Virus genome (UHGV): UHGV-0306720
Reading direction: 5' to 3' (one strand)
Origin: a virus
Length of the DNA stretch: 22,887 bases
The notes below the pieces were generated by a model. It did no database searches. It saw only the letters and a list, made by a program, of their open reading frames with translations, and was not told where the DNA came from. Below, in pieces: positions 14,745 to 22,676 of this stretch. Made by a program: the position numbers and the translations under genes. Positions within the stretch are counted from its first letter, which is position 1; each line of letters starts with the position of its first letter.

Positions 14745-14852
14745 CAGGATTTTTAAATCCCGCTTTTGCCTGTTTTGTGCGCGCTTCATATATCGCGGCG
14801 CGTTTTTTGCTCATTTACGGGATTTGTGAGTCCCGTTTCTGTCTGTTTTTTG
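14745..14852. repeat. Two ~35-bp imperfect direct repeats (27/35 identical), each with an internal dyad, 73 bp apart
   Basis: CAGGATTTTTAAATCCCGCTTTTGCCTGTTTTGTG (14745-14779) versus CGGGATTTGTGAGTCCCGTTTCTGTCTGTTTTTTG (14818-14852). The first lies between the A stop and the parM start; the second lies within the last codons of A. Confidence 0.6.
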
Positions 14853-17608
14853 TTTCCACTGGTCAGGCCACCCCGCAGCAGGTCTGCTTTGCGGCTGGCG
14901 CGTTCAGTGGTTTCACTGATTCTCTGTGCGTGCTCTGCGTCGCGGATGGCGCGCAGCATGTCAGAAAGCACGGTAACGGGTGTTTTCATGGTGTTCTGGT
15001 CCTGCTGAAGTGTGGATGCCAGGCGTGCGGCGGCTTCAGGGTCTGATGCCCCCAGCTGTGCCAGATAGCTGGCGACCGGGTTATGGCGGATCTCCGTGCT
15101 GCTTACGCCATGATTACGGCTCAGGCGCTGCCAGAGCTGCGTGATTCGGCTGTCCGGGCGGGTATCCGGTTTGCGTACAATTTCAAATCCCTGCGGTGCA
15201 ATGATGCTGCCGTCAACGTACAGACTGCCGCCCCGTAACAGGTGCTGCATCTGTTGTTCACCGATATGCAGGCCGAGAGATTCAGCAGACTCCCGCCATT
15301 CTTTAGCGAGTAATTCGTGGTTATCAGGCAAAGGCCGCTGCTGTTTGCGGCTCTGTGTCCAGCTCTGCATTTCATCACTGCTGTTTTTTGCCTGTTTGTC
15401 ACGAAGCGAACGCATCAGCGCCCGGCGTTCGTGCCGTTTCAGTGAGCGCATCCATTCGTTCACGTCAACGCCGTCAGGAAGCTGCGGCCACGGTGCTGGC
15501 CGTTCTTCCGGCTGTTCTGTCCCGTTGTTGTCCGTTTCCTGTACACGGGGACAGTTATTGCCACGAGTCCAAGGGGCGGCAGGGCCGCCCTGAAGGTCAA
15601 AACCATTTTCGCGGGCGCTGTCTTCCGCTTCCGGTTTGCGTCTTACCAGCTTCCAGTTATCCGGATGCGTGCACACACGGGAGGATTCCCCGATGAGTGG
15701 CGACCAGATCCCGTAAATCTGTACGCTCTGTTCGCCGTAATCGTTCAGCTCATCTGCGAGGTCGTAGGCGGTGCGAATCAGGTAGTCTTTGCGTGGAACA
15801 AGTACGCCGCCCTGTTTCTCTATGTAGGTGGCAAAACATCCGGCATCAGCGGCAGCAAGAACCGCATCCATTGCGTCATCCTTCAGCCGTTGCGGGCCTT
15901 CGGGGTTGCGTGCCATCTGGCTGGCAAGGCGACGCAGTTCACGCCACACCTGACGGGAGGGGATACCAAAGAACTGGAACTGGCGGACCCGGTGAAGGCG
16001 CGCCCAGCCGATGGCGCGTTCCACGCTCTCGGCCATTGATTTTCCGGTTTCGTGGTCAACGCGTGGTTTGCCCGTTTTCGGGTCGATGCCATCCACGGCG
16101 CGGCTGTCCAGGTTCTTTCCGATGTAGGTGGCGATGTAGCTGGTTGGCGTGCCTTTTGAGCCGTCGACATACTCCACCTTAAAGCGCGGAGTAATATCAT
16201 TGCCCAGCTCGTGGCGGTCTTCCTGAATGGCAATATCGCGGGTGATGGCCACGATGCTGTCGATTTCTTCCGGATGAGCAAAGACCATCATATGCCAGTG
16301 CACGGTGCCGTCATGGTGAGGCTCCACCGTGCGGATGCCATACCAGCGCAGGCCGTCGCGGTTCAGTTTCTTGCGGACCGCCGCAAAAAACGTGTTAACC
16401 AGGTAATCGCTGGAGTCGCGCATGGTGGCCCCGTTCCATTTGGGGTTCGGATGACCGTTCTCCGTTGTTGCGTGGTATTTTGACGGGCAGGTGACAGTCA
16501 GAAACACCGCTCTGTCGCCACGGGCTTCGGCCAGAAGTTCCAGTCCCTTCATGGTGGCCATCATTTCTGCCTTACGGTGAACCGGGTTACTTACTCCCGC
16601 GTAATACACTGTCTCGAGATCAATCGTGAAGCCGTCTTCGTTTTCCAGTTCGAAGCTCTTCAGGAAGTCGCGGGTTTTCTCGCGCTGTGCGCGAAACTCG
16701 CTTAACGCGTCCTGGCTCAGATAGGGTGATGTTTTTCTGGAAACCAGACAGGCGGCGCGGAGTTGTTCTTCTCTCCACTCGCAACGTAACAGCCACAGTT
16801 TGCGTTTCCACCATTCCGCACAGGTCAGGCGAAGGATTGCGCCCGGCAGCAGCTCCGTGTCCGGTTCGTTCCTCCGGTCTTTGTCTGTTGTCAGTGCGTC
16901 ATAATGTGGAGGCATGGCGTGCAGGTGTAACGCCATGCGGGCCAGCATCTGATACGCCTTCAGCGTTACATCCATGGTCAGTTCGCCATCAGTCGCGCCA
17001 AAGCCATCGCAGAGTTTTTCGAAGGTGCTGCTGAACATCGCCGCCGTCATGGTGGCCAGCGTCTGTATCTGGTGCTTGTTGAGCTGCGGCAGGTAAAGCA
17101 AATCATCCAGGCGTTCGCGTCCGGCAAGGGAGCGATAACCCGGTGTCAGCCAGCGGTGGTCGGTGCGGTCCAGACGTTCGAATATTTTGCGCAGGGTTCC
17201 GCGCGCGTAGCGTTCAGCCTGCCAGCTCTTTTTGCCTTTCCGGCGATCGACTTCCTGTTTTTTGCGCAGGAAGGAGAGGTGGCGAATAAGCGGATCGCGC
17301 AGATAGGACGGCAGCAGGCGCAGCGAGGCCATGGCTTCATCCACCGCGCCGCGTGCCTGTTTTCTGGCGTCTCCTGCCAGTGTGATGGTTTTGTCCTGTT
17401 TTTCCTGTGCATCCAGGCTTTTATTAATCAGGTTGCCCAGCGGCGTGGCGGAGAACGCCGCATCAGCCATTTCCTGGCGGCGCTCGTTCTCTGCCCGGTA
17501 GGCATCCAGCCAGGAGGAAAGCGCAGATTCAGGAACGGGGATCCCCGTTCCTTCACGTCCCACTGCGTGGCGCGGTTGTTGCCAGTCCCTGATGTACTCT
17601 GCCGTCAT
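14786..17608 (-). CDS. A: Replication initiation endonuclease gpA-like (HUH rolling-circle initiator), 940 aa
   Basis: HUH motif in VHWHMMVFAHPEE; large last gene of the early operon as in P2; ATG confirmed. Confidence 0.8.
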   Translation of the reverse strand: MTAEYIRDWQQPRHAVGREGTGIPVPESALSSWLDAYRAENERRQEMADAAFSATPLGNLINKSLDAQEKQDKTITLAGDARKQARGAVDEAMASLRLLPSYLRDPLIRHLSFLRKKQEVDRRKGKKSWQAERYARGTLRKIFERLDRTDHRWLTPGYRSLAGRERLDDLLYLPQLNKHQIQTLATMTAAMFSSTFEKLCDGFGATDGELTMDVTLKAYQMLARMALHLHAMPPHYDALTTDKDRRNEPDTELLPGAILRLTCAEWWKRKLWLLRCEWREEQLRAACLVSRKTSPYLSQDALSEFRAQREKTRDFLKSFELENEDGFTIDLETVYYAGVSNPVHRKAEMMATMKGLELLAEARGDRAVFLTVTCPSKYHATTENGHPNPKWNGATMRDSSDYLVNTFFAAVRKKLNRDGLRWYGIRTVEPHHDGTVHWHMMVFAHPEEIDSIVAITRDIAIQEDRHELGNDITPRFKVEYVDGSKGTPTSYIATYIGKNLDSRAVDGIDPKTGKPRVDHETGKSMAESVERAIGWARLHRVRQFQFFGIPSRQVWRELRRLASQMARNPEGPQRLKDDAMDAVLAAADAGCFATYIEKQGGVLVPRKDYLIRTAYDLADELNDYGEQSVQIYGIWSPLIGESSRVCTHPDNWKLVRRKPEAEDSARENGFDLQGGPAAPWTRGNNCPRVQETDNNGTEQPEERPAPWPQLPDGVDVNEWMRSLKRHERRALMRSLRDKQAKNSSDEMQSWTQSRKQQRPLPDNHELLAKEWRESAESLGLHIGEQQMQHLLRGGSLYVDGSIIAPQGFEIVRKPDTRPDSRITQLWQRLSRNHGVSSTEIRHNPVASYLAQLGASDPEAAARLASTLQQDQNTMKTPVTVLSDMLRAIRDAEHAQRISETTERASRKADLLRGGLTSGNKKQTETGLTNPVNEQKTRRDI

Positions 17609-17614
17609 AGTGAT

Positions 17615-17980
17615 TTACTTCGTCATGCCATTCAGGGTGTCGCGGCAGACGGCAGCCAGCCGCTGAATTTCCAGCACGGTGTCTTCTGTGTCGGCATGGC
17701 GATGTGTGATGCGGATGCTGTCGGCAATCACATCGACAATTGCAGAGGATGGGCGCTGGTAAATGCCAATAACGGACGGGGTGCCACCTTCAATGCGGTA
17801 AAGCCTGTAATTTCCCTCGTGGCTGTCAATCATGTAGCGACCATCAATAACAATCTTTCCGTCAGCGAGCTGCGGTACAGGCAGGGATTTCAGGTACATG
17901 TCATAACGATCACGCACGCGAGCGGCAAGATCACGTTCTGTGTTGAGCAGGTATTCAAGAAAGTCGTTGGCGAGAATCAT
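17615..17980 (-). CDS. Hypothetical early-operon protein (121 aa)
   Basis: Immediately upstream of A, same strand, 6-nt gap; no recognised motif. Confidence 0.5.
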   Translation of the reverse strand: MILANDFLEYLLNTERDLAARVRDRYDMYLKSLPVPQLADGKIVIDGRYMIDSHEGNYRLYRIEGGTPSVIGIYQRPSSAIVDVIADSIRITHRHADTEDTVLEIQRLAAVCRDTLNGMTK

Positions 17981-18052
17981 TGCGGCAATCCTCTTGTTAC
18001 AGATGTGCGAAGGCCTCCCGCCGCAAGGTGCAGGAAAGGCCCGGAACAGTAA

Positions 18053-18283
18053 TTAATGGAGTTTGTTTTGCTGCTGGATGAGCTGCTGAAGCTCGCGCAG
18101 ATCATCCGCCAGATAGCTGAAAACAGAGGCGGAATAGCTGTTCGATAGTGCGTGACTGCGCTCATGCAGCATATTGATGTGCATGATTTGCGCGACGCGG
18201 AATGCGCGGAAAAGTCTGCGGTTGATTTCAGTCTGGATGTGACGACGCGCAGCGTATGCGCGGTGCTGTTTGCGGTTTGCCAT
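18053..18283 (-). CDS. Hypothetical basic early-operon protein (76 aa)
   Basis: ATG preceded by SD AAAGAGG; basic N-terminus; no family recognised. Confidence 0.45.
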   Translation of the reverse strand: MANRKQHRAYAARRHIQTEINRRLFRAFRVAQIMHINMLHERSHALSNSYSASVFSYLADDLRELQQLIQQQNKLH

Positions 18284-18457
18284 GGTGTGGCCTCTTTGCT
18301 AGTAAGTTTTAAAAACTCACCATCCAGAGGTTCCAAGCTCGGGGTGGTGAGACGTACAGGGTTGGAACTACCGGCTAGCAAAGAACCCGGCCCGACCGAA
18401 GTCGGCCCCATACGCCCCACCATAATTCGTGTGCGAAAAAGACGTGGCGATACGGTA

Positions 18458-18488
18458 CGCACAAAAAAACCGCTGGCGCGGTTGTGCG
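18458..18488 (-). terminator. Nested hairpin followed by a U7 tract on the minus strand, inside the early-operon gap
   Basis: CGCACAA...ACCGC-TGGC-GCGGT...TTGTGCG; the plus-strand A7 run becomes U7 after the stem on the minus strand. Confidence 0.4.
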
Positions 18489-18605
18489 CTTTGCTAGTCA
18501 GCGGGGTTCCAATCCCGGCACCCGTTTTATGAGGTGCAGCGGAAATGTAACCTGACTGATTGCGGCATGGCAAGCGGTTTTTTTGTGTGTGCATGTTCTG
18601 GTTTC

Positions 18606-18905
18606 TTACTGGTTCAGAAAAAAATCAAAAACCTTGTCAATGCGTTGCAGCAGCTCTTGCTGTATTGCTTCCGGCGTTTCCGGTTCGCCCGGCGCCTCCA
18701 ACGTCGCGCAGAAATCAGCGATTTCATGATGGAGCGTCAGGCGAATGGCTGGAGCCATGGTTCTGGCGTGCTCCAGCTCATCCAGCAGTGCCAGCACAGC
18801 AGACGGCGAGAGCATTGCGCGAAACGCCAGTAATTTTTGATGCGTTGCCATTCGTTGCAGGTCAGTCGCCAGTTCGCGTAGTTCCTGGTGGTTGATGGTG
18901 CTCAT
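18606..18905 (-). CDS. Hypothetical early-operon protein (99 aa)
   Basis: 4-nt overlap with the upstream gene; no recognised motif. Confidence 0.5.
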   Translation of the reverse strand: MSTINHQELRELATDLQRMATHQKLLAFRAMLSPSAVLALLDELEHARTMAPAIRLTLHHEIADFCATLEAPGEPETPEAIQQELLQRIDKVFDFFLNQ

Positions 18906-19147
18906 GCTCTGGCTTCCTTCAGTAGCTGGTTAAACATGTGAGTAAGTGGGTTGCCACACCCGAACGGCATCGGGTTTACCTGGTAAGAGAACCGACCGCC
19001 TGTTTTGCGTTCTTCTCTGATGACTAAGCCGTCGCGCCAGAGTCGGCGTAACTCCGCATTAATGGCTGTGGTTGGGGTATTCAGTGCTGCGGCGATTTCT
19101 CCACCGCTACAACCCGGATTGGCAGCGATGTAGTCCAGAATGATCAT
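18902..19147 (-). CDS. Small putative winged-helix DNA-binding protein (81 aa)
   Basis: GEIAAALNTPTTAINAELRRLWRDGLVIREERK looks like a helix-turn-helix recognition helix plus wing; translationally coupled to neighbours. Confidence 0.45.
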   Translation of the reverse strand: MIILDYIAANPGCSGGEIAAALNTPTTAINAELRRLWRDGLVIREERKTGGRFSYQVNPMPFGCGNPLTHMFNQLLKEARA

Positions 19148-19365
19148 CTGCGTGACTCCTGTGCCTGTCGGATAAGGTTCACCCGCACCACATTCGTGGC
19201 GCAGAAGTAAGTGCCGTCAGTGAGATAGATGTGATGTGCATCCTTTTCTGAACGGTGTTTGTCGATAGTGGTAATCAGGCGTTCGTCGACCTCGTATTCG
19301 CGTCCTCTGGAGGTAAAGCGAACGACGGGAAAATGCTTAATTGCCATTACGCTCTCTTTGCCCAA
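19144..19365 (-). CDS. Hypothetical early-operon protein (73 aa)
   Basis: 4-nt overlap with the downstream gene; no recognised motif. Confidence 0.45.
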   Translation of the reverse strand: MGKESVMAIKHFPVVRFTSRGREYEVDERLITTIDKHRSEKDAHHIYLTDGTYFCATNVVRVNLIRQAQESRR

Positions 19366-19370
19366 TAGCC

Positions 19371-19781
19371 CTATGCGTTAAATACGGCACGTTGCGCGCC
19401 ATCAATGAATGCAACTTGAGAGCGCTCTATCAGGCGGAGATTTGTCAGAATTTCTGATTCCCTTATGGGGTGAGGAGTGATCAAGTATTTATCCTGTAAT
19501 CCGGCGATAATGGTGTATTGCTGTGGCTCCGAGCCAATTGTGTAAATAAGGCGTCCGGTGTTAGACAAATCCAGTCCGGTGACTGGTTGTGTTCTGGGAA
19601 CCGTTAGTTCAGCATCCTGTTTTTCGATAATTTCGGCTGCTTCGGCGGTTACTCTTGCTATCATCATGGCTGTGGTGGCAGGCCCAATCATTCCTGCATT
19701 TGTTGCATCTTGAATGGCTTTGTTTGCGGTCTTCGATATATTTTTTAGCGCAGTTACAATGCCTTTTTCTTTTGCGTTCAT
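19371..19781 (-). CDS. Hypothetical early-operon protein (136 aa)
   Basis: ORF with typical codon usage in the early operon; no recognised motif. Confidence 0.5.
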   Translation of the reverse strand: MNAKEKGIVTALKNISKTANKAIQDATNAGMIGPATTAMMIARVTAEAAEIIEKQDAELTVPRTQPVTGLDLSNTGRLIYTIGSEPQQYTIIAGLQDKYLITPHPIRESEILTNLRLIERSQVAFIDGAQRAVFNA

Positions 19782-19874
19782 TTTTGTATCTCCATTATTT
19801 ACGTGTGTGAATGCCTCCGCTAATTCGGATGGTTTTCACGTTTTCTTATTTAATCTGGTGTTTTATTTGCTCTG

Positions 19875-19988
19875 TTATTCGCCAGTGAAAAAGCGTTCAA
19901 TCTTTTTCACTGAATGAATAATTCGCATAATCCCGATTGCGCAGGCCACCGAAATAATCAGAACAATCCATGACATAAATATACTCAT
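19875..19988 (-). CDS. 37-codon single-transmembrane peptide (MSIFMSWIVLIISVACAIGIMRIIHSVKKIERFFTGE)
   Basis: Not in the ORF track (below its size cutoff). ATG at 19988 overlaps the stop of the upstream gene (19985-19987). Hydrophobic core followed by a basic tail. Confidence 0.35.
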   Translation of the reverse strand: MSIFMSWIVLIISVACAIGIMRIIHSVKKIERFFTGE

Positions 19989-20227
19989 GCGATATTCCCC
20001 AGTTTATATGGTTCAATGCGATCCCCGCATTCTGCAGCGCAGACGAGTTCGGAAAGTTCGTTAATTGCATCCAAATCGTCAGCGTAAAAGGCCACGTCAT
20101 AAAGGCTTCTGATTGCCCTTGCTAATGAATCATGGGCTGCGTGTTCGGCGTGAAGCCCTGATGTGTTTAAGCGAAAATGAAAACGCTCAAGTGCTTTATT
20201 GACGAGAGCTTTATATTCTTTGTCCAT
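19985..20227 (-). CDS. Hypothetical early-operon protein (80 aa from ATG at 20227)
   Basis: ATG at 20227 preceded by AAGGG, 10 nt after the upstream stop. The ORF-track start at 20371 would overlap the upstream gene. Confidence 0.45.
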   Translation of the reverse strand: MDKEYKALVNKALERFHFRLNTSGLHAEHAAHDSLARAIRSLYDVAFYADDLDAINELSELVCAAECGDRIEPYKLGNIA

Positions 20228-20237
20228 CGCACGCCCT

Positions 20238-20525
20238 TTAATCTGCCTTCTGGATTTCTGCTTCTGAATCCATACAAATAATTTCGATATAGGGTTTATC
20301 GCCATTAACCTGACGTGCCTTTTCAGCTTCGCTAATGATTTCTCGTACGCTCTGGTACGGAAGTTCCACAAGCAGTCGAGTGCCGTTCAGATAAACGTAA
20401 GTGGCTTCAGCGGTTCCGTTTCTCCCCGCCGGAGCCACTCCATCAATAGCGGATGCGCGTAATAACAGTTCACCGCGAAAATCAATAAAGCGGATAAATA
20501 CACCCTGAGTATGTTCTTTAGTCAT
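20238..20525 (-). CDS. Hypothetical early-operon protein (95 aa from ATG at 20525)
   Basis: ATG at 20525 preceded by SD AGGTG; no recognised motif. Confidence 0.45.
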   Translation of the reverse strand: MTKEHTQGVFIRFIDFRGELLLRASAIDGVAPAGRNGTAEATYVYLNGTRLLVELPYQSVREIISEAEKARQVNGDKPYIEIICMDSEAEIQKAD

Positions 20526-20535
20526 AAAGCACCTG

Positions 20536-20877
20536 TTATAAATCAGCCTGTTTAATAAAACTTTGCCCACGAAGCAGACGATCAACCGTGCGAAGTGCTT
20601 CGTATAATGTGAAATCCTGCCCGAATTGATTGTCGCCGCAGCTCAATGCAAAAATGCGGTTTCCGGTAAACGGATTGCGTGGGCATTTGTGGACCACGAT
20701 TCCAGCTTTCTCAATCAGCCAGGCATGCTCGCCGATTTGTTTTACTGGGTAGCCATCCGGCGTTGCGTGTGTATCACTCAGGCTGTAGCGGATGTTGCTG
20801 CGTGATGCACTGGTAGCGAAACGGTTAGCGTGGCGTTCAGCACCATTACGAAAGCGTGAATTACGTTGCTGTTTCAT
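20536..20877 (-). CDS. Hypothetical early-operon protein (113 aa)
   Basis: Second gene of the early operon after cox; no recognised motif. Confidence 0.5.
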   Translation of the reverse strand: MKQQRNSRFRNGAERHANRFATSASRSNIRYSLSDTHATPDGYPVKQIGEHAWLIEKAGIVVHKCPRNPFTGNRIFALSCGDNQFGQDFTLYEALRTVDRLLRGQSFIKQADL

Positions 20878-20895
20878 ATCAAAACTCCCTGCATC

Positions 20896-21222
20896 TCATG
20901 CAGCAAAATTAAGAAAGCCTAATCCCAAATCTTCCGCCAGCTTCTTGGCTTTCTTAAGCCAGTGATTGCGCCAATCTTTACGCTCAGGAGGAAGCTGTTT
21001 CGTTGCGTCATAGACCATTTCGAGCCACTCATTCCAAAGGATGAGAAGACGGCGCGAACTCCCTTCCTCGCCTAAAACCTCGCGCTCAGTAGTTAGAGGG
21101 ATGAGTCGACGCTCTACCAACTTTCTTACGGCTGATTCGGTCTTACCTGTGCGGCGGGAAAACTCATCGACGGTGATGGGGTCTGGGATCTTAAACAATG
21201 CCCTCAATAGTTCTTCATTCAT
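20896..21222 (-). CDS. cox: Cox-like regulator/excisionase (108 aa from ATG at 21222)
   Basis: First gene of the early operon, divergent from C. ITVDEFSRRTGKTESAVRKLVERRLIPL and the W-x-x-W pattern resemble P2 Cox as recalled. SD GGGAG before the ATG. Confidence 0.6.
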   Translation of the reverse strand: MNEELLRALFKIPDPITVDEFSRRTGKTESAVRKLVERRLIPLTTEREVLGEEGSSRRLLILWNEWLEMVYDATKQLPPERKDWRNHWLKKAKKLAEDLGLGFLNFAA

Positions 21223-21317
21223 GTGATAATCTCCCTGTTTGGGGTATTTCTTGCGACGGATGCCCCAAATCAAACTCATTTGTATAAACATTAATACAGA
21301 CGTTGGAGAATTGCAAC
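21223..21317. promoter_or_regulatory. Lysis-lysogeny switch region (divergent early and repressor promoters, operators)
   Basis: Intergenic region between divergent cox and C; imperfect inverted repeat TTTGGGGTAT...ATGCCCCAAA. Confidence 0.5.
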
Positions 21318-21620
21318 ATGCGTATGACTATTGGAGAGCGCATAAAAATCATGCGTGAAAGCGAGAGACTTACTAGCCTCCCGGATACAGCAAAAATGCT
21401 TGGTTTAAACCGTGATGCTCTGTGGAGATATGAAAGCGGTAAAACTATCCCTAATGCTGAAGTAATTGAGCAAATACTAAACAACCCCAGATTTGAGAAA
21501 TATGCGTTGTGGTTTATGACTGGGAAAATTGCGCCTGAATCCGGGCAGATAGCTCCGGCTCTCGCACACTATGGGCAAGAGCCAACGGACTTACCCCCAT
21601 CCGAAAGGAAAATTGGCTAA
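21318..21620 (+). CDS. C: Immunity repressor C (P2 C-like), about 100 aa
   Basis: KYALWFMTGKIAPESGQIAPALAHYGQE closely matches the P2 C repressor C-terminus as recalled. ORF-track start is a TTG at 21303; ATG at 21318 or 21324 is more likely. Confidence 0.8.
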   Translation: MRMTIGERIKIMRESERLTSLPDTAKMLGLNRDALWRYESGKTIPNAEVIEQILNNPRFEKYALWFMTGKIAPESGQIAPALAHYGQEPTDLPPSERKIG

Positions 21621-21686
21621 CCCTTTATTATTCTTACGTTTTACAAACTGGAAATGTCTTTCCTCGTTTCACCGGAGGGCTTGCCA

Positions 21687-22676
21687 ATGGCAATTAAAGC
21701 GCTCGATGGTGGACGGTATAAAGTGGATGTTAGACCGCGTGGCCGAAGTGGACGTCGGATTCAGCGGATTTTTAAGAAAAAGGCAGATGCAGTGGCCTTT
21801 GAGCGTTATGTTCTCAGCCACATGCACGATAAGGAATGGCTTGAAAAGCCAACAGAGCAACGTCATCTCTCAGATCTGCTTCCGTTATGGTGGGAATTGG
21901 GTGGACGCAATAAGCCATATGCTAACGGCGTTCTAACCAGGTTGAAAAAAATCATCAAAGAAATGAATGATCCAAGGGTTAGCCAGATTAATGCTCGTTT
22001 CATGGCCGCTTATCGAAGCTCCCGTTTATCCTTGGGAGTAAAAGAGTCTACTGTTCGGCGTGATGAGTCGGATCTCGGAGGAATGTTTACACTCCTGGCA
22101 AATGCCGGGGAATTTCACGGAGAAAATCCGCTCCGCGCCCTCCCCTCTTTGAAACGAAAATCACCCGAAATGACGTATCTCACCACGGAAGAAATCGCCA
22201 AATTACTGGATGCAGTAAGCGGTGATGCCCGGCGGATTACGCTACTTTGTCTCAGTACTGGGGCGAGATGGGGAGAAGCGAAAAATCTGCGCGCGGAACA
22301 CATCATCAATAATCGCGTGACGTTTAACAAAACTAAAAACGGAAAAGTTCGAATTATTCCTGTCTCTGATGAAGTTGTTAGTGAGATCAAAACAAAGAAA
22401 TCCGGCCTTTTGTTTGACGTCAATTATGAGGAATATCGCAAGGTGCTTCGCAGTGTTAAGCCAGACCTACCAAAAGGACAGGCTGTACATGTTCTACGCC
22501 ATACCTTTGCTGCTCACTTTATGATTAATGGAGGAAATATACTTACGCTCCAGCGAATTATGGGGCACGCTACGATCCAGCAAACTATGACCTATGCGCA
22601 CCTCGCTCCTGATTTCCTCCAGGATGCAATTTCACTTAATCCGTTAAAAGGAGGCATCCACATTTCATCCACATAA
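21687..22676 (+). CDS. int: Tyrosine integrase (P2 Int-like); ATG 21687 preferred, ORF-track start 21654
   Basis: C-terminal catalytic signature HVLRHTFAAHFMINGGNILTLQRIMGHATIQQTMTYAHLAP (R, H-x-x-R, Y). MAIKALDGGRYKVDVRPRG resembles the P2 Int N-terminus. SD GGAGGG before 21687. Confidence 0.9.
   Translation: MAIKALDGGRYKVDVRPRGRSGRRIQRIFKKKADAVAFERYVLSHMHDKEWLEKPTEQRHLSDLLPLWWELGGRNKPYANGVLTRLKKIIKEMNDPRVSQINARFMAAYRSSRLSLGVKESTVRRDESDLGGMFTLLANAGEFHGENPLRALPSLKRKSPEMTYLTTEEIAKLLDAVSGDARRITLLCLSTGARWGEAKNLRAEHIINNRVTFNKTKNGKVRIIPVSDEVVSEIKTKKSGLLFDVNYEEYRKVLRSVKPDLPKGQAVHVLRHTFAAHFMINGGNILTLQRIMGHATIQQTMTYAHLAPDFLQDAISLNPLKGGIHISST

What the first reader, a model, noticed from the sequence alone, without database searches (positions are those of the whole stretch)
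19875..19988. Translationally coupled 37-codon single-TM peptide in the early operon
A 37-codon ORF (MSIFMSWIVLIISVACAIGIMRIIHSVKKIERFFTGE) starts with an ATG overlapping the stop codon of the upstream gene. It encodes one hydrophobic helix and a basic tail, and is too short for the ORF track. Small membrane peptides in phage early regions often act in superinfection exclusion, cell-division inhibition or as toxins.
Basis: seen in the sequence. Interest (0 to 1): 0.4.

Follow-up and report, generated by a model that had tools for sequence, protein, structure and literature searches.

The report
Conserved small phage membrane protein gene
The 37-codon reading frame is a real, conserved gene for a tiny single-pass membrane protein in the early operon of a P2-family (P88-like) prophage found in about a quarter of E. 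coli genomes; databases already list it as a hypothetical protein and its function is untested.

Summary
On the minus strand, 19875-19988 encodes MSIFMSWIVLIISVACAIGIMRIIHSVKKIERFFTGE. Its ATG overlaps the TGA of the upstream DUF4754 gene (ATGA), and a GGGGA Shine-Dalgarno lies 7 nt upstream.

It is a gene, not a chance ORF:
- In 175 related loci (81 haplotypes; E. coli, E. albertii, Salmonella, Citrobacter, Hafnia) the ATGA overlap is always kept.
- 79 of the 81 haplotypes keep the membrane helix.
- pN/pS is 0.21-0.31 in this frame and above 1 in the other sense frames.
- Where the partner DUF4754 has drifted to 30-40% identity, the peptide stays 56-75% identical.

The conserved part is the transmembrane helix (invariant Ser6, Trp7, Ala17; Arg/Lys22). 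The tail varies between 37, 41, 45 and 47-49 aa forms.

The gene closes the promoter-proximal block of the early operon (cox-DUF4761-95aa-DUF4754-peptide). A conserved hairpin and a variable gene slot follow it.

It matches no family in Pfam, PHROGs, NCBIfam, PADLOC, PDB or Rfam, and I found no literature on it. RefSeq already annotates it as "hypothetical protein", and phage P88 gp07 as "membrane protein".

Function is inferred only. The most likely role is an early lytic effector acting through its helix in the host inner membrane. A lysogen-expressed exclusion role is disfavoured. This is ordinary in kind and an orphan in sequence.

The parts
19875..19988 (-). Small membrane protein gene (sTM): 37 codons plus TAA. 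Transmembrane helix about residues 3-24, cytoplasmic basic tail residues 25-37.
   Evidence: ORF and translation. Hydropathy 2.58. Conserved in 175 loci / 81 haplotypes. pN/pS 0.21-0.31. Annotated as a CDS in RefSeq and in phage P88.
19985..19988 (-). ATGA overlap: the start codon of sTM shares two bases with the TGA stop of DUF4754 (translational coupling signal).
   Evidence: Sequence. Present in every locus examined, including alleles whose flanking coding sequence is otherwise different.
19996..20000 (-). Shine-Dalgarno GGGGA, 7 nt upstream of the sTM ATG, embedded in the last codons of DUF4754.
   Evidence: Sequence. GGGGA/GGGAA in P88-type alleles. Most divergent alleles carry GGAG, GAGG or GGAGG at the same distance; two carry only GGGA, and the Hafnia and Citrobacter alleles have no clear match.
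19985..20227 (-). Upstream partner gene, DUF4754 family, 80 aa, predicted three-helix bundle. Always immediately precedes sTM.
19807..19839 (-). Conserved hairpin in the 93-nt spacer after sTM (GUGAA..CC.UCCG-loop-CGGAGG..UUCAC). Marks the end of the conserved promoter-proximal block. A possible counterpart of the 186 tR1 / P2 post-B terminator, but without a U run.
   Evidence: MFE -12.8 kcal/mol, z = -2.9. 3 pairs with changes on both sides and 0/500 shuffles reach the covariation score. Kept in E. coli, Salmonella, Hafnia and Citrobacter loci whatever gene follows. Compared with P2 and 186.
20238..21222 (-). Upstream genes of the same early operon: cox (20896-21222), DUF4761 (20536-20877) and a 95-aa phrog_3800 gene (20238-20525).
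   Evidence: ORFs and family hits. RefSeq and P88 annotation of homologous loci. Synteny in divergent prophages.

Best explanation
SHOWN BY SEQUENCE AND COMPARISON:
- This is a genuine protein-coding gene for a 37-residue protein with a single hydrophobic helix.
- It is the last gene of the promoter-proximal block of the early (Pe, cox-side) operon of a P88-like (Xuanwuvirus, P2-family) prophage.
- It carries the signals for co-translation with the preceding 80-aa DUF4754 gene: an invariant ATGA overlap and, in most alleles, its own Shine-Dalgarno.

INFERRED, TOPOLOGY:
- The N-terminus has almost no extramembrane residues and the C-terminal tail is net positive. The protein should therefore sit in the inner membrane N-out/C-in, with a cytoplasmic tail of 12-16 residues.

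INFERRED, FUNCTION:
- It should be made only when the C repressor is lifted, that is, on infection or induction.
- The transmembrane helix is the most conserved part (invariant Ser6-Trp7 at the outer edge, Ala17 mid-helix, Arg/Lys22 at the inner edge).
- The tail and the partner protein drift or are swapped.
- From this I infer that the helix itself is the working part. It would pack against a host inner-membrane protein or against copies of itself, perturbing a host membrane function (division, transport or energisation) early in lytic growth.
- That would be the kind of host-takeover role that fil and dhr play at the equivalent position of phage 186.

Confidence that it is a real small-protein gene with a membrane-spanning hydrophobic helix is about 0.9. 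Confidence in the 'early host-membrane effector acting through its helix' mechanism is about 0.35-0.4.
For: Gene reality:
- ORF, ATGA overlap and SD.
- 175 loci / 81 haplotypes, with 79 keeping the helix.
- pN/pS 0.21 and 0.31, against 1.06-1.86 in the other sense frames.
- The start at M1 is conserved while M5 is usually Ile.
- The gene is present in the active phages P88 and phiSM.

Constraint stronger than on the neighbour:
- The peptide is 56-75% identical where DUF4754 is only 30-40% identical.
- Hafnia and Citrobacter homologues of 47-49 aa keep FSWV(I/V)..LSIIAAI.I.R but have a different tail.

Membrane character:
- KD 2.58 for residues 3-21. All positive charges lie C-terminal of the helix, and the 41-aa forms add KRRK.

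Early-operon, repressed-in-lysogen setting:
- Tight same-strand gene chain from cox, divergent from C-int, as in P2.
- No promoter-like site above chance on the coding strand between cox and the peptide.

Positional analogy:
- 186 has apl-cII-fil-dhr and then tR1. P2 has cox-orf78-B and then a terminator. Here the order is cox-DUF4761-95aa-DUF4754-sTM and then a conserved hairpin.
Against: - No experiment shows translation, localisation or any phenotype, and no literature exists on the family.
- There is no homology to any characterised protein, so the mechanism rests on architecture and position only.
- The conserved positions do not cluster significantly on one helix face (992 of 10000 permutations reach the observed moment), so a defined packing interface is not demonstrated.
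- Tail-altering alleles are tolerated in nature: the 45-aa frameshift forms, a 30-aa truncation, and one early frameshift in a Cronobacter-run assembly. The gene is therefore dispensable at least in some prophages.
- fil and dhr of 186 are not membrane proteins and are unrelated in sequence.
Confidence: 0.4

Rival explanations
1. Membrane anchor for its partner. The peptide and the three-helix DUF4754 protein would form a stoichiometric complex, and the peptide's role would be to hold DUF4754 (and whatever it binds) at the inner membrane. The working part would then be the cytoplasmic tail / DUF4754 interface.
For: - DUF4754 and the peptide are adjacent with an ATGA overlap in every locus across five genera. 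This arrangement favours equimolar co-synthesis.
- The tail motif K-x-I-E-x-(F/L)-F-T-G-(E/D) is shared by the E. coli subtypes.
- DUF4754 keeps a C-terminal (I/V)-(E/T/Q)-P-(Y/F) motif in all alleles.
Against: - The same peptide allele (100% identical) is found behind DUF4754 alleles that are 38% and 79% identical to the window's (L091 vs L092). The two genes recombine independently.
- The helix is more conserved than the tail, the opposite of what a passive anchor predicts.
- A Salmonella locus has a frameshifted DUF4754 but an intact peptide (L173).
- The 45-aa alleles replace the FTGE end.
- No complex prediction could be run.
Confidence: 0.2
2. Exclusion or defence protein: a small membrane protein that blocks DNA entry or aborts infection of competing phages, as T4 Imm, HK97 gp15 or P22 SieA do.
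For: - Small single-pass membrane proteins are a common form of superinfection exclusion (established knowledge).
- The module is very common, in 1361 of 5426 complete E. coli genomes, which fits a benefit to the host.
- Early expression could protect an already infected cell, as with T4 imm.
Against: - The gene is inside the C-repressed early operon with no promoter of its own above chance, so it should be silent in a lysogen.
- No PADLOC or PHROG exclusion or defence family matches the peptide or the neighbours scanned: DUF4761, the 95-aa gene, DUF4754 and the downstream 136-aa and 73-aa genes.
- Known P2 conversion genes (old, tin) sit elsewhere with their own promoters.
Confidence: 0.15
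3. Toxin of a toxin-antitoxin-like pair. One version is a type I toxin controlled by an antisense RNA. The other is a membrane toxin neutralised by the upstream soluble protein, in the common antitoxin-ATGA-toxin layout.
For: - The architecture (N-terminal hydrophobic helix plus charged tail, 30-50 aa) resembles the Fst/Ldr-type type I toxins. This is recalled knowledge, not tested homology.
- A 4-nt overlap with an upstream small soluble protein is typical of type II pairs.
- A sigma-70-like match lies antisense inside the ORF at 19904-19931.
Against: - Rfam finds no antitoxin RNA family anywhere in 18000-22000 apart from C4/isrK, about 1.3 kb (1.3-1.5 kb) away.
- The antisense promoter match is at chance level (5 found, 4.0 expected). 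Its -35 hexamer is changed by the commonest synonymous variant, GTG to GTA at codon 27.
- There is no structured leader around the start (z = +0.46).
- The pair has no promoter of its own and sits mid-operon.
- No NCBIfam toxin family matches.
Confidence: 0.1
4. Not a functional protein: a fortuitous ORF, or an ORF whose translation matters (for mRNA stability or for expression of downstream genes) while its amino-acid sequence does not.
For: - Tail length varies through a nonsense change and homopolymer indels.
- One truncated and one frameshifted allele exist.
- It is not called by the gene finders used for several assemblies.
Against: - pN/pS is 0.21-0.31 in this frame only.
- Ser6, Trp7 and Ala17 are invariant across genera.
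- The peptide is more conserved than the adjacent bona fide gene.
- 79 of 81 haplotypes keep the helix.
Confidence: 0.04

Closest known systems
Escherichia phage P88 gp07 (YP_009113050.1, 'membrane protein') and RefSeq WP_000021716.1 / WP_161620296.1 / WP_000021655.1 ('hypothetical protein')
   Same: Same gene family, 37 aa, about 95% identical (94.6% for P88 gp07). Same position after DUF4754 with the ATGA overlap, in P2-family (Xuanwuvirus) phages and prophages.
   Different: Nothing essential. These are annotations without any functional study. Some records (phiSM, several assemblies) do not call the gene at all.
Phage 186 fil and dhr (early host-takeover genes upstream of tR1); phage P2 orf78/B upstream of a putative terminator
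   Same: Same place in the P2-family early operon: promoter-proximal, after the cox/apl regulator and before a hairpin that separates them from the replication genes.
   Different: No sequence similarity, and Fil, Dhr and Orf78 have no transmembrane helix. The hairpin here lacks the U run of tR1.
Small single-pass inner-membrane regulators of E. coli (AcrZ, MgtS, MgrB, SgrT type)
   Same: Size class and predicted layout (one helix and a short cytoplasmic tail). The helix is the conserved element, as expected for proteins that act by packing against a larger membrane protein. This is established knowledge for that class; the layout here comes.
   Different: No homology. Those are chromosomal genes with their own regulation, whereas this one is a phage early gene coupled to a soluble partner. 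No target is known.
Type I toxins of the Fst/Ldr, Hok and TisB kind
   Same: A hydrophobic helix followed by a charged tail, 30-50 aa.
   Different: No antisense RNA, no promoter or structured leader of its own, and no family match. The gene is embedded in a repressed operon behind a conserved protein gene.
Phage membrane exclusion proteins (T4 Imm, HK97 gp15, P22 SieA)
   Same: Small phage-encoded inner-membrane proteins.
   Different: No homology. The gene is not positioned for expression in the lysogen.

Membership tests
Bona fide small protein-coding gene | Reading frame kept intact in relatives | tested here: met
   79 of 81 haplotypes (175 loci, five genera) keep the start, the frame and the helix.
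Bona fide small protein-coding gene | Purifying selection specific to this frame | tested here: met
   pN/pS is 0.21 and 0.31, against 1.06-1.86 in the other sense frames. The antisense frame that shares third positions gives 0.33-0.42, as expected.
Bona fide small protein-coding gene | Translation initiation signals | tested here: met
   ATG with GGGGA 7 nt upstream. Most divergent alleles keep a GGAG/GAGG-type element; two carry only GGGA and the Hafnia/Citrobacter alleles have no clear match. The ATGA overlap is invariant.
Bona fide small protein-coding gene | Direct evidence of translation (ribosome footprints, peptide detection) | not testable with these tools
   No data set is available here, and literature searches found nothing on this family.
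Single-pass inner-membrane protein, N-out/C-in | Hydrophobic stretch of about 19 or more residues above the membrane-spanning threshold | tested here: met
   KD mean 2.58 for residues 3-21. Hydrophobic in all homologues.
Single-pass inner-membrane protein, N-out/C-in | Positive-inside charge distribution | tested here: met
   There is no charge before the helix. R22, K28, K29 and R32 follow it, and the 41-aa forms add KRRK.
Single-pass inner-membrane protein, N-out/C-in | Experimental membrane localisation and topology | not testable with these tools
   Needs fractionation and PhoA/LacZ or GFP fusions.
Type I toxin-antitoxin locus (Hok/Sok, Ldr/Rdl, Ibs/Sib, TisB/IstR, Fst/RNAII) | Cis- or trans-encoded antisense RNA antitoxin | tested here: not met
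   Rfam e-value scan of 18000-22000 gives no match at or near the ORF. The one antisense promoter-like match is at chance level and is not conserved.
Type I toxin-antitoxin locus (Hok/Sok, Ldr/Rdl, Ibs/Sib, TisB/IstR, Fst/RNAII) | Own promoter and structured leader that gates translation | tested here: not met
   No promoter-like site on the coding strand between cox and the ORF. The region around the start folds no better than shuffles (z = +0.46).
Type I toxin-antitoxin locus (Hok/Sok, Ldr/Rdl, Ibs/Sib, TisB/IstR, Fst/RNAII) | Toxicity of the peptide on overexpression | not testable with these tools
   Experimental.
Superinfection exclusion / anti-phage defence protein | Homology to a known exclusion or defence family | tested here: not met
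   No PADLOC, PHROG, Pfam or NCBIfam match for the peptide.
Superinfection exclusion / anti-phage defence protein | Expression in the lysogen (own promoter outside repressor control) | tested here: inconclusive
   The consensus scan finds none and the gene is mid-operon. A consensus scan cannot exclude a weak or non-sigma-70 promoter.
P2-family early host-takeover genes (186 fil/dhr type) | Promoter-proximal position in the early operon, before the hairpin/terminator that precedes the replication genes | tested here: met
   Gene order and hairpin compared with the annotated P2 and 186 records.
P2-family early host-takeover genes (186 fil/dhr type) | Sequence or fold relationship to Fil or Dhr | tested here: not met
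   Fil and Dhr are soluble, unrelated sequences.
Any curated protein family (Pfam, PHROGs, NCBIfam) or solved structure | Significant profile match | tested here: not met
   Zero hits in Pfam, PHROGs and NCBIfam. Best PDB E-value is 1. A profile search of 1.84 billion representatives finds only 17 proteins, all from this same small family.

The most novel reading that the evidence does not exclude
DUF4754 plus the peptide could be an unrecognised, obligately co-translated two-protein early effector of P88-like phages. In this reading the highly conserved helix (Ser-Trp ... Ala ... Arg) docks onto one specific host inner-membrane machine, such as the divisome, a transporter or a respiratory complex. 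That would arrest the host, or shut out competing phages, during lytic growth. Because the module sits in about a quarter of E. coli genomes, it would be a widespread, previously unstudied phage-host interface.
Probability: 0.3. Interest if true: 0.5.

Novelty: new member of a known kind. Interest (0 to 1): 0.3.

Why it matters
Small phage membrane proteins are under-annotated and mostly unstudied. Those that have been studied often turn out to be precise inhibitors of host membrane machines or exclusion factors.

This one has several features that make it a reasonable experimental target:
- It is unusually well constrained for its size, evolving more slowly than the protein it is coupled to.
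- It is an orphan: only 17 representatives among 1.84 billion.
- It is carried by 1361 of 5426 complete E. coli genomes, including O157:H7, and by the active phages P88 and phiSM.

As it stands it is an ordinary kind of gene with unknown function, already present in RefSeq annotation. Its immediate value is modest. The work here confirms a real small gene that some annotations miss, and defines its family, its conserved core and its operon context.

Tried and rejected
Family and structure searches:
- Pfam, PHROGs, NCBIfam and PADLOC scans of the peptide and of 11 family members gave nothing significant.
- A PDB profile search gave a best E-value of 1.

Antisense RNA and leader:
- The Rfam e-value scan gave no RNA family at the ORF.
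- The promoter/terminator consensus scan gave counts at shuffle level. The antisense match at 19904-19931 was rejected as not conserved.
- An RNA fold around the start codon, run to test for structure-enforced coupling, gave z = +0.46, so no structure.

Partner and neighbour structures:
- Neither informs function.

Other tests:
- A helical-wheel test for a conserved face was not significant.
- Comparison with P2 orf78 and 186 fil/dhr showed no relationship.

Search limitations:
- The search for homologous proteins refuses queries under 40 aa. I worked around this by adding the three in-frame upstream residues.
- The search for related loci refuses single proteins under 48 aa. I worked around this with an alignment.

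Literature:
- Searches for DUF4754, DUF4761, Xuanwuvirus, P88, peptide strings and accessions found no functional study.
- One search was badly framed and yielded nothing relevant.
- I did not attempt a fused-chain complex prediction, because the tool reports no interface measures and does not accept constructed sequences.

Full report
WHAT IS THERE

The finding's coordinates are right, but the ORF is on the minus strand. Window 19875..19988 (minus strand) reads ATG AGT ATA TTT ... GGC GAA TAA and translates to MSIFMSWIVLIISVACAIGIMRIIHSVKKIERFFTGE.
- The ATG shares two bases with the TGA stop of the upstream gene (ATGA at 19985-19988).
- GGGGA lies at 19996-20000, 7 nt before the ATG.
- Residues 3-21 have a Kyte-Doolittle mean of 2.58, and every positive charge (R22, K28, K29, R32) follows the hydrophobic stretch.

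An ORF of 37 codons is not in itself unusual here: 74 ORFs of at least 20 aa overlap 18000-22000. However, only two of the 72 ATG-ORFs of 30-60 aa in the window carry such a hydrophobic stretch, against 0.08 per window in mononucleotide shuffles. The other one is antisense to the replication gene.

SETTING

The window is a P2-family prophage of the P88 type (Peduoviridae, Xuanwuvirus).
- Phage P88, Citrobacter phage Shae_phiSM and vB_EcoM-569R5 match 19300-20700 at 86-88% identity, P88 over 68% of the query because it lacks the 136-aa gene.
- The gene order is integrase (21654-22676, +) and C repressor (21303-21620, +). Divergently, on the minus strand, come cox (20896-21222), DUF4761 (20536-20877), a 95-aa gene (20238-20525), DUF4754 (19985-20227) and the 37-aa ORF.
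- A 93-nt spacer follows, then a 136-aa gene, a 67-aa gene, a MarR-type wHTH, an Ea22-like gene and others, up to the 940-aa replication endonuclease (14786-17608).
- From cox to the small ORF the gaps are 18, 10, 10 and -4 nt on one strand. No promoter- or terminator-like site exceeds shuffle expectation.
- This is the layout of the P2 early operon, so 'early operon' is justified by homology of organisation.

ALREADY ANNOTATED

RefSeq (PGAP) calls this 114-nt CDS 'hypothetical protein' in E. coli genomes (WP_161620296.1, WP_000021716.1, and WP_000021655.1 in O157:H7 86-24). P88 lists it as gp07 'membrane protein', and vB_EcoM-569R5 as 'putative membrane protein'. Other records and gene callers omit it.

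The DNA is present in 1361 of 5426 complete E. coli genomes.

IS IT A GENE?

I collected 175 loci: RefSeq and phage records, two IMG/VR scans, and contig look-ups through the neighbouring DUF4761 gene.

Retention:
- They give 81 distinct haplotypes of the ORF plus 30 nt upstream.
- 61 haplotypes encode 37 aa, 13 encode 41 aa, 3 encode 45 aa, and one each encodes 47 and 49 aa.
- One is truncated after the helix (30 aa) and one is frameshifted at codon 4.
- The ATGA overlap is present in every locus.

Substitution pattern:
- For codons 1-33 in 38 unique P88-type sequences, pN/pS is 0.21. The other two sense frames give 1.58 and 1.13, and the neighbouring DUF4754 gene gives 0.12.
- With the divergent alleles added (65 unique sequences, codons 1-36), pN/pS is 0.31 against 1.06 and 1.86.
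- The antisense frame that shares third positions scores 0.33-0.42, as it must.

Start and initiation signals:
- Position 5 is Ile in most alleles, so M1 is the conserved start.
- In most divergent prophages (integrase 43-59% and repressor 33-41% identical to the window's) the sequence before the ATG differs, yet a GGAG, GAGG or GGAGG element sits at the same distance. Two alleles carry only GGGA, and the Hafnia and Citrobacter alleles show no clear match.

WHAT IS CONSERVED

- Where DUF4754 has fallen to 30-40% identity, the peptide remains 56-75% identical.
- A profile search without word index over 1.84 billion representatives returned only 17 proteins, all from this family. They include the 41-aa subtypes (for example MSVFLSWVILIISVLMAIGIMRIIEALKNIESLFTGEERRK).
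- Hafnia and Citrobacter sp. TSA-1 prophages carry 49- and 47-aa homologues, again with ATGA after a DUF4754 gene. An example is MSDVSIPVCFSWVILTLSIIAAIAIIRLWRAISKQEESADTDIKKRNHK.
- Across all of these, Ser6, Trp7 and Ala17 are invariant. Leu10, Ile20 and Arg/Lys22 are nearly so. The tail differs.

Tail variants:
- The 37-aa form is the 41-aa form with AAA changed to TAA at codon 38. The window reads GAA TAA CAG AGC AAA TAA, and L104 reads GAA AAA CGC CGT AAA TAA.
- The 45-aa form is a 1-nt deletion in the T run at codons 33-34.

So the helix, not the tail, is the constrained element. A test for a single conserved helix face was not significant.

RELATION TO THE PARTNER

The two genes are always adjacent and overlapping. 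Even so:
- L091 and L092 carry the identical peptide behind DUF4754 alleles that are 38% and 79% identical to the window's.
- A Salmonella locus has a frameshifted DUF4754 with an intact peptide.

The pair is thus co-expressed but recombines at the junction. This weakens, without excluding, a tightly co-evolved complex.

WHAT FOLLOWS THE GENE

The roughly 75 nt after the stop are conserved whatever gene comes next. That gene is a 136-138-aa gene in about half the loci, a 67-aa gene in about a quarter, and others elsewhere.

The spacer holds a hairpin at 19807-19839:
- MFE is -12.8 kcal/mol and z = -2.9.
- Three pairs show changes on both sides, and 0 of 500 shuffles reach the covariation score.
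- Its inner stem, TCCGC-N4-GCGGA followed by GG, is kept in E. coli, Salmonella, Hafnia and Citrobacter.

In place and form it resembles the putative terminator after P2 B and tR1 after 186 dhr: a short GC hairpin followed by GGGC(A)TTC. It lacks their T run. I read it as the boundary of the promoter-proximal block, and this is an inference.

WHAT IT IS NOT

- Not a known family. There is no hit in Pfam, PHROGs, NCBIfam, PADLOC or the PDB.
- No support for a type I toxin locus. There is no antitoxin RNA family. The only antisense promoter-like match (19904-19931) is at chance level, and the commonest synonymous variant alters it. There is no structured leader.
- Not related to P2 orf78 or to 186 fil/dhr, which are soluble proteins.
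- No paper mentions the family.

MOST LIKELY MECHANISM

Shown:
- A conserved gene with a hydrophobic helix under purifying selection.
- Signals for co-translation with DUF4754.
- A location in the repressor-controlled early operon.

Inferred:
- N-out/C-in insertion in the inner membrane, from the charge distribution.
- Synthesis only on infection or induction.
- Action through the helix on a host membrane component or by self-association, as an early host-takeover function. This is positionally analogous to fil/dhr of 186.

I put about 0.9 on 'real small-protein gene with a membrane-spanning helix' and about 0.35-0.4 on this mechanism. The rivals are:
- a membrane anchor for DUF4754 (0.2);
- an exclusion or defence role (0.15), disfavoured for lysogens by the operon position;
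- a toxin-antitoxin-like toxin (0.1);
- no peptide function (0.04).

NOVELTY AND VERDICT

In kind, this is an ordinary small phage membrane protein. In sequence it is an orphan family restricted to P88-like prophages of Enterobacteriaceae. It is already annotated as hypothetical, and nothing is known of its function.

It is a sound candidate for experiment because it is widespread and better conserved than its neighbours, but nothing about it would surprise a specialist. Interest is 0.3, and I class it as a new member of a known kind.

Noticed in passing
window 18340-18427 (-) and 18463-18537 (-): Rfam matches well above gathering score: C4 antisense RNA (RF01695, 82.7 bits) and isrK Hfq-binding RNA (RF01394, 69.1 bits), plus a weak c4-a1b1 target match at 18498-18550. 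All lie inside the 205-aa ORF 17977-18594 that RefSeq annotates as 'ash family protein' in related prophages. This suggests a P1/P7-type C4 antisense immunity or anti-repressor control element, and possibly an over-called CDS.
   Followed up: no
window 19807-19839 (-): Conserved hairpin (inner stem TCCGC-N4-GCGGA, then GG) in the spacer after the small gene. It is kept across E. coli, Salmonella, Hafnia and Citrobacter loci regardless of the downstream gene, with compensatory changes. It resembles 186 tR1 and the P2 post-B terminator in place and form, but has no U run.
   Followed up: partly
window 19371-19781 (-) and the equivalent slot in L009-L088: The gene right after the hairpin is a variable slot. 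A 136-138-aa phrog_9338 gene sits there in about half the loci. In about a quarter, including P88, the 67-aa MAIKHFPVVRFT gene follows directly. Elsewhere a 105-aa gene or others occupy it.
   Followed up: partly
L094, L095, L098, about 14 nt after the small gene's stop: In one divergent subtype the small membrane gene is followed by a second small hydrophobic ORF, MKNVKAILTIATVWLIFQVCALIWLALKIWG (31 aa), in place of the usual spacer and hairpin.
   Followed up: no
window 19875-19890 and the 3' ends of homologues: Length polymorphism of the tail. The 37-aa form is the 41-aa form with AAA changed to TAA at codon 38, and the old stop is still in frame 4 codons later. The 45-aa form is a 1-nt deletion in the T5-6 run at codons 33-34. 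A 30-aa allele (L049) arises from an indel in the A run.
   Followed up: yes
window 19795-19839 (-): A 14-codon GTG-initiated mini-ORF (MKTIRISGGIHTRK) overlaps the hairpin. In L025 and L076 the same frame starts with ATG and runs on into a 105-108-aa ORF. In other loci the start codon is absent. This may be a remnant of an ancestral gene's 5' end at a mosaic junction.
   Followed up: no
L173 (Salmonella enterica GCA_007234975.1); L171/L172 (Logan runs SRR6659519/SRR6659521, reached through a DUF4761 protein that NCBI names Cronobacter sakazakii): Broken alleles. The Salmonella locus has DUF4754 frameshifted in a C run while the small gene is intact. The two Logan-run loci have the small gene frameshifted at codon 4 (23 aa) behind an intact DUF4754. 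These could be real decay or assembly errors.
   Followed up: no
L006 (NZ_JBQPOM010000071.1, titled Vagococcus sp. WN89Y): A 226-kb contig labelled as a Vagococcus (Firmicutes) genome carries this enterobacterial P2-family module at 85% protein identity. This looks like contamination or a mislabelled assembly.
   Followed up: no
window 16974-17096 (+): This is the only other small ATG-ORF in the window with a strongly hydrophobic stretch (40 aa, KD 2.53). It lies antisense to the replication endonuclease gene and is probably a by-product of that gene's codon composition.
   Followed up: no
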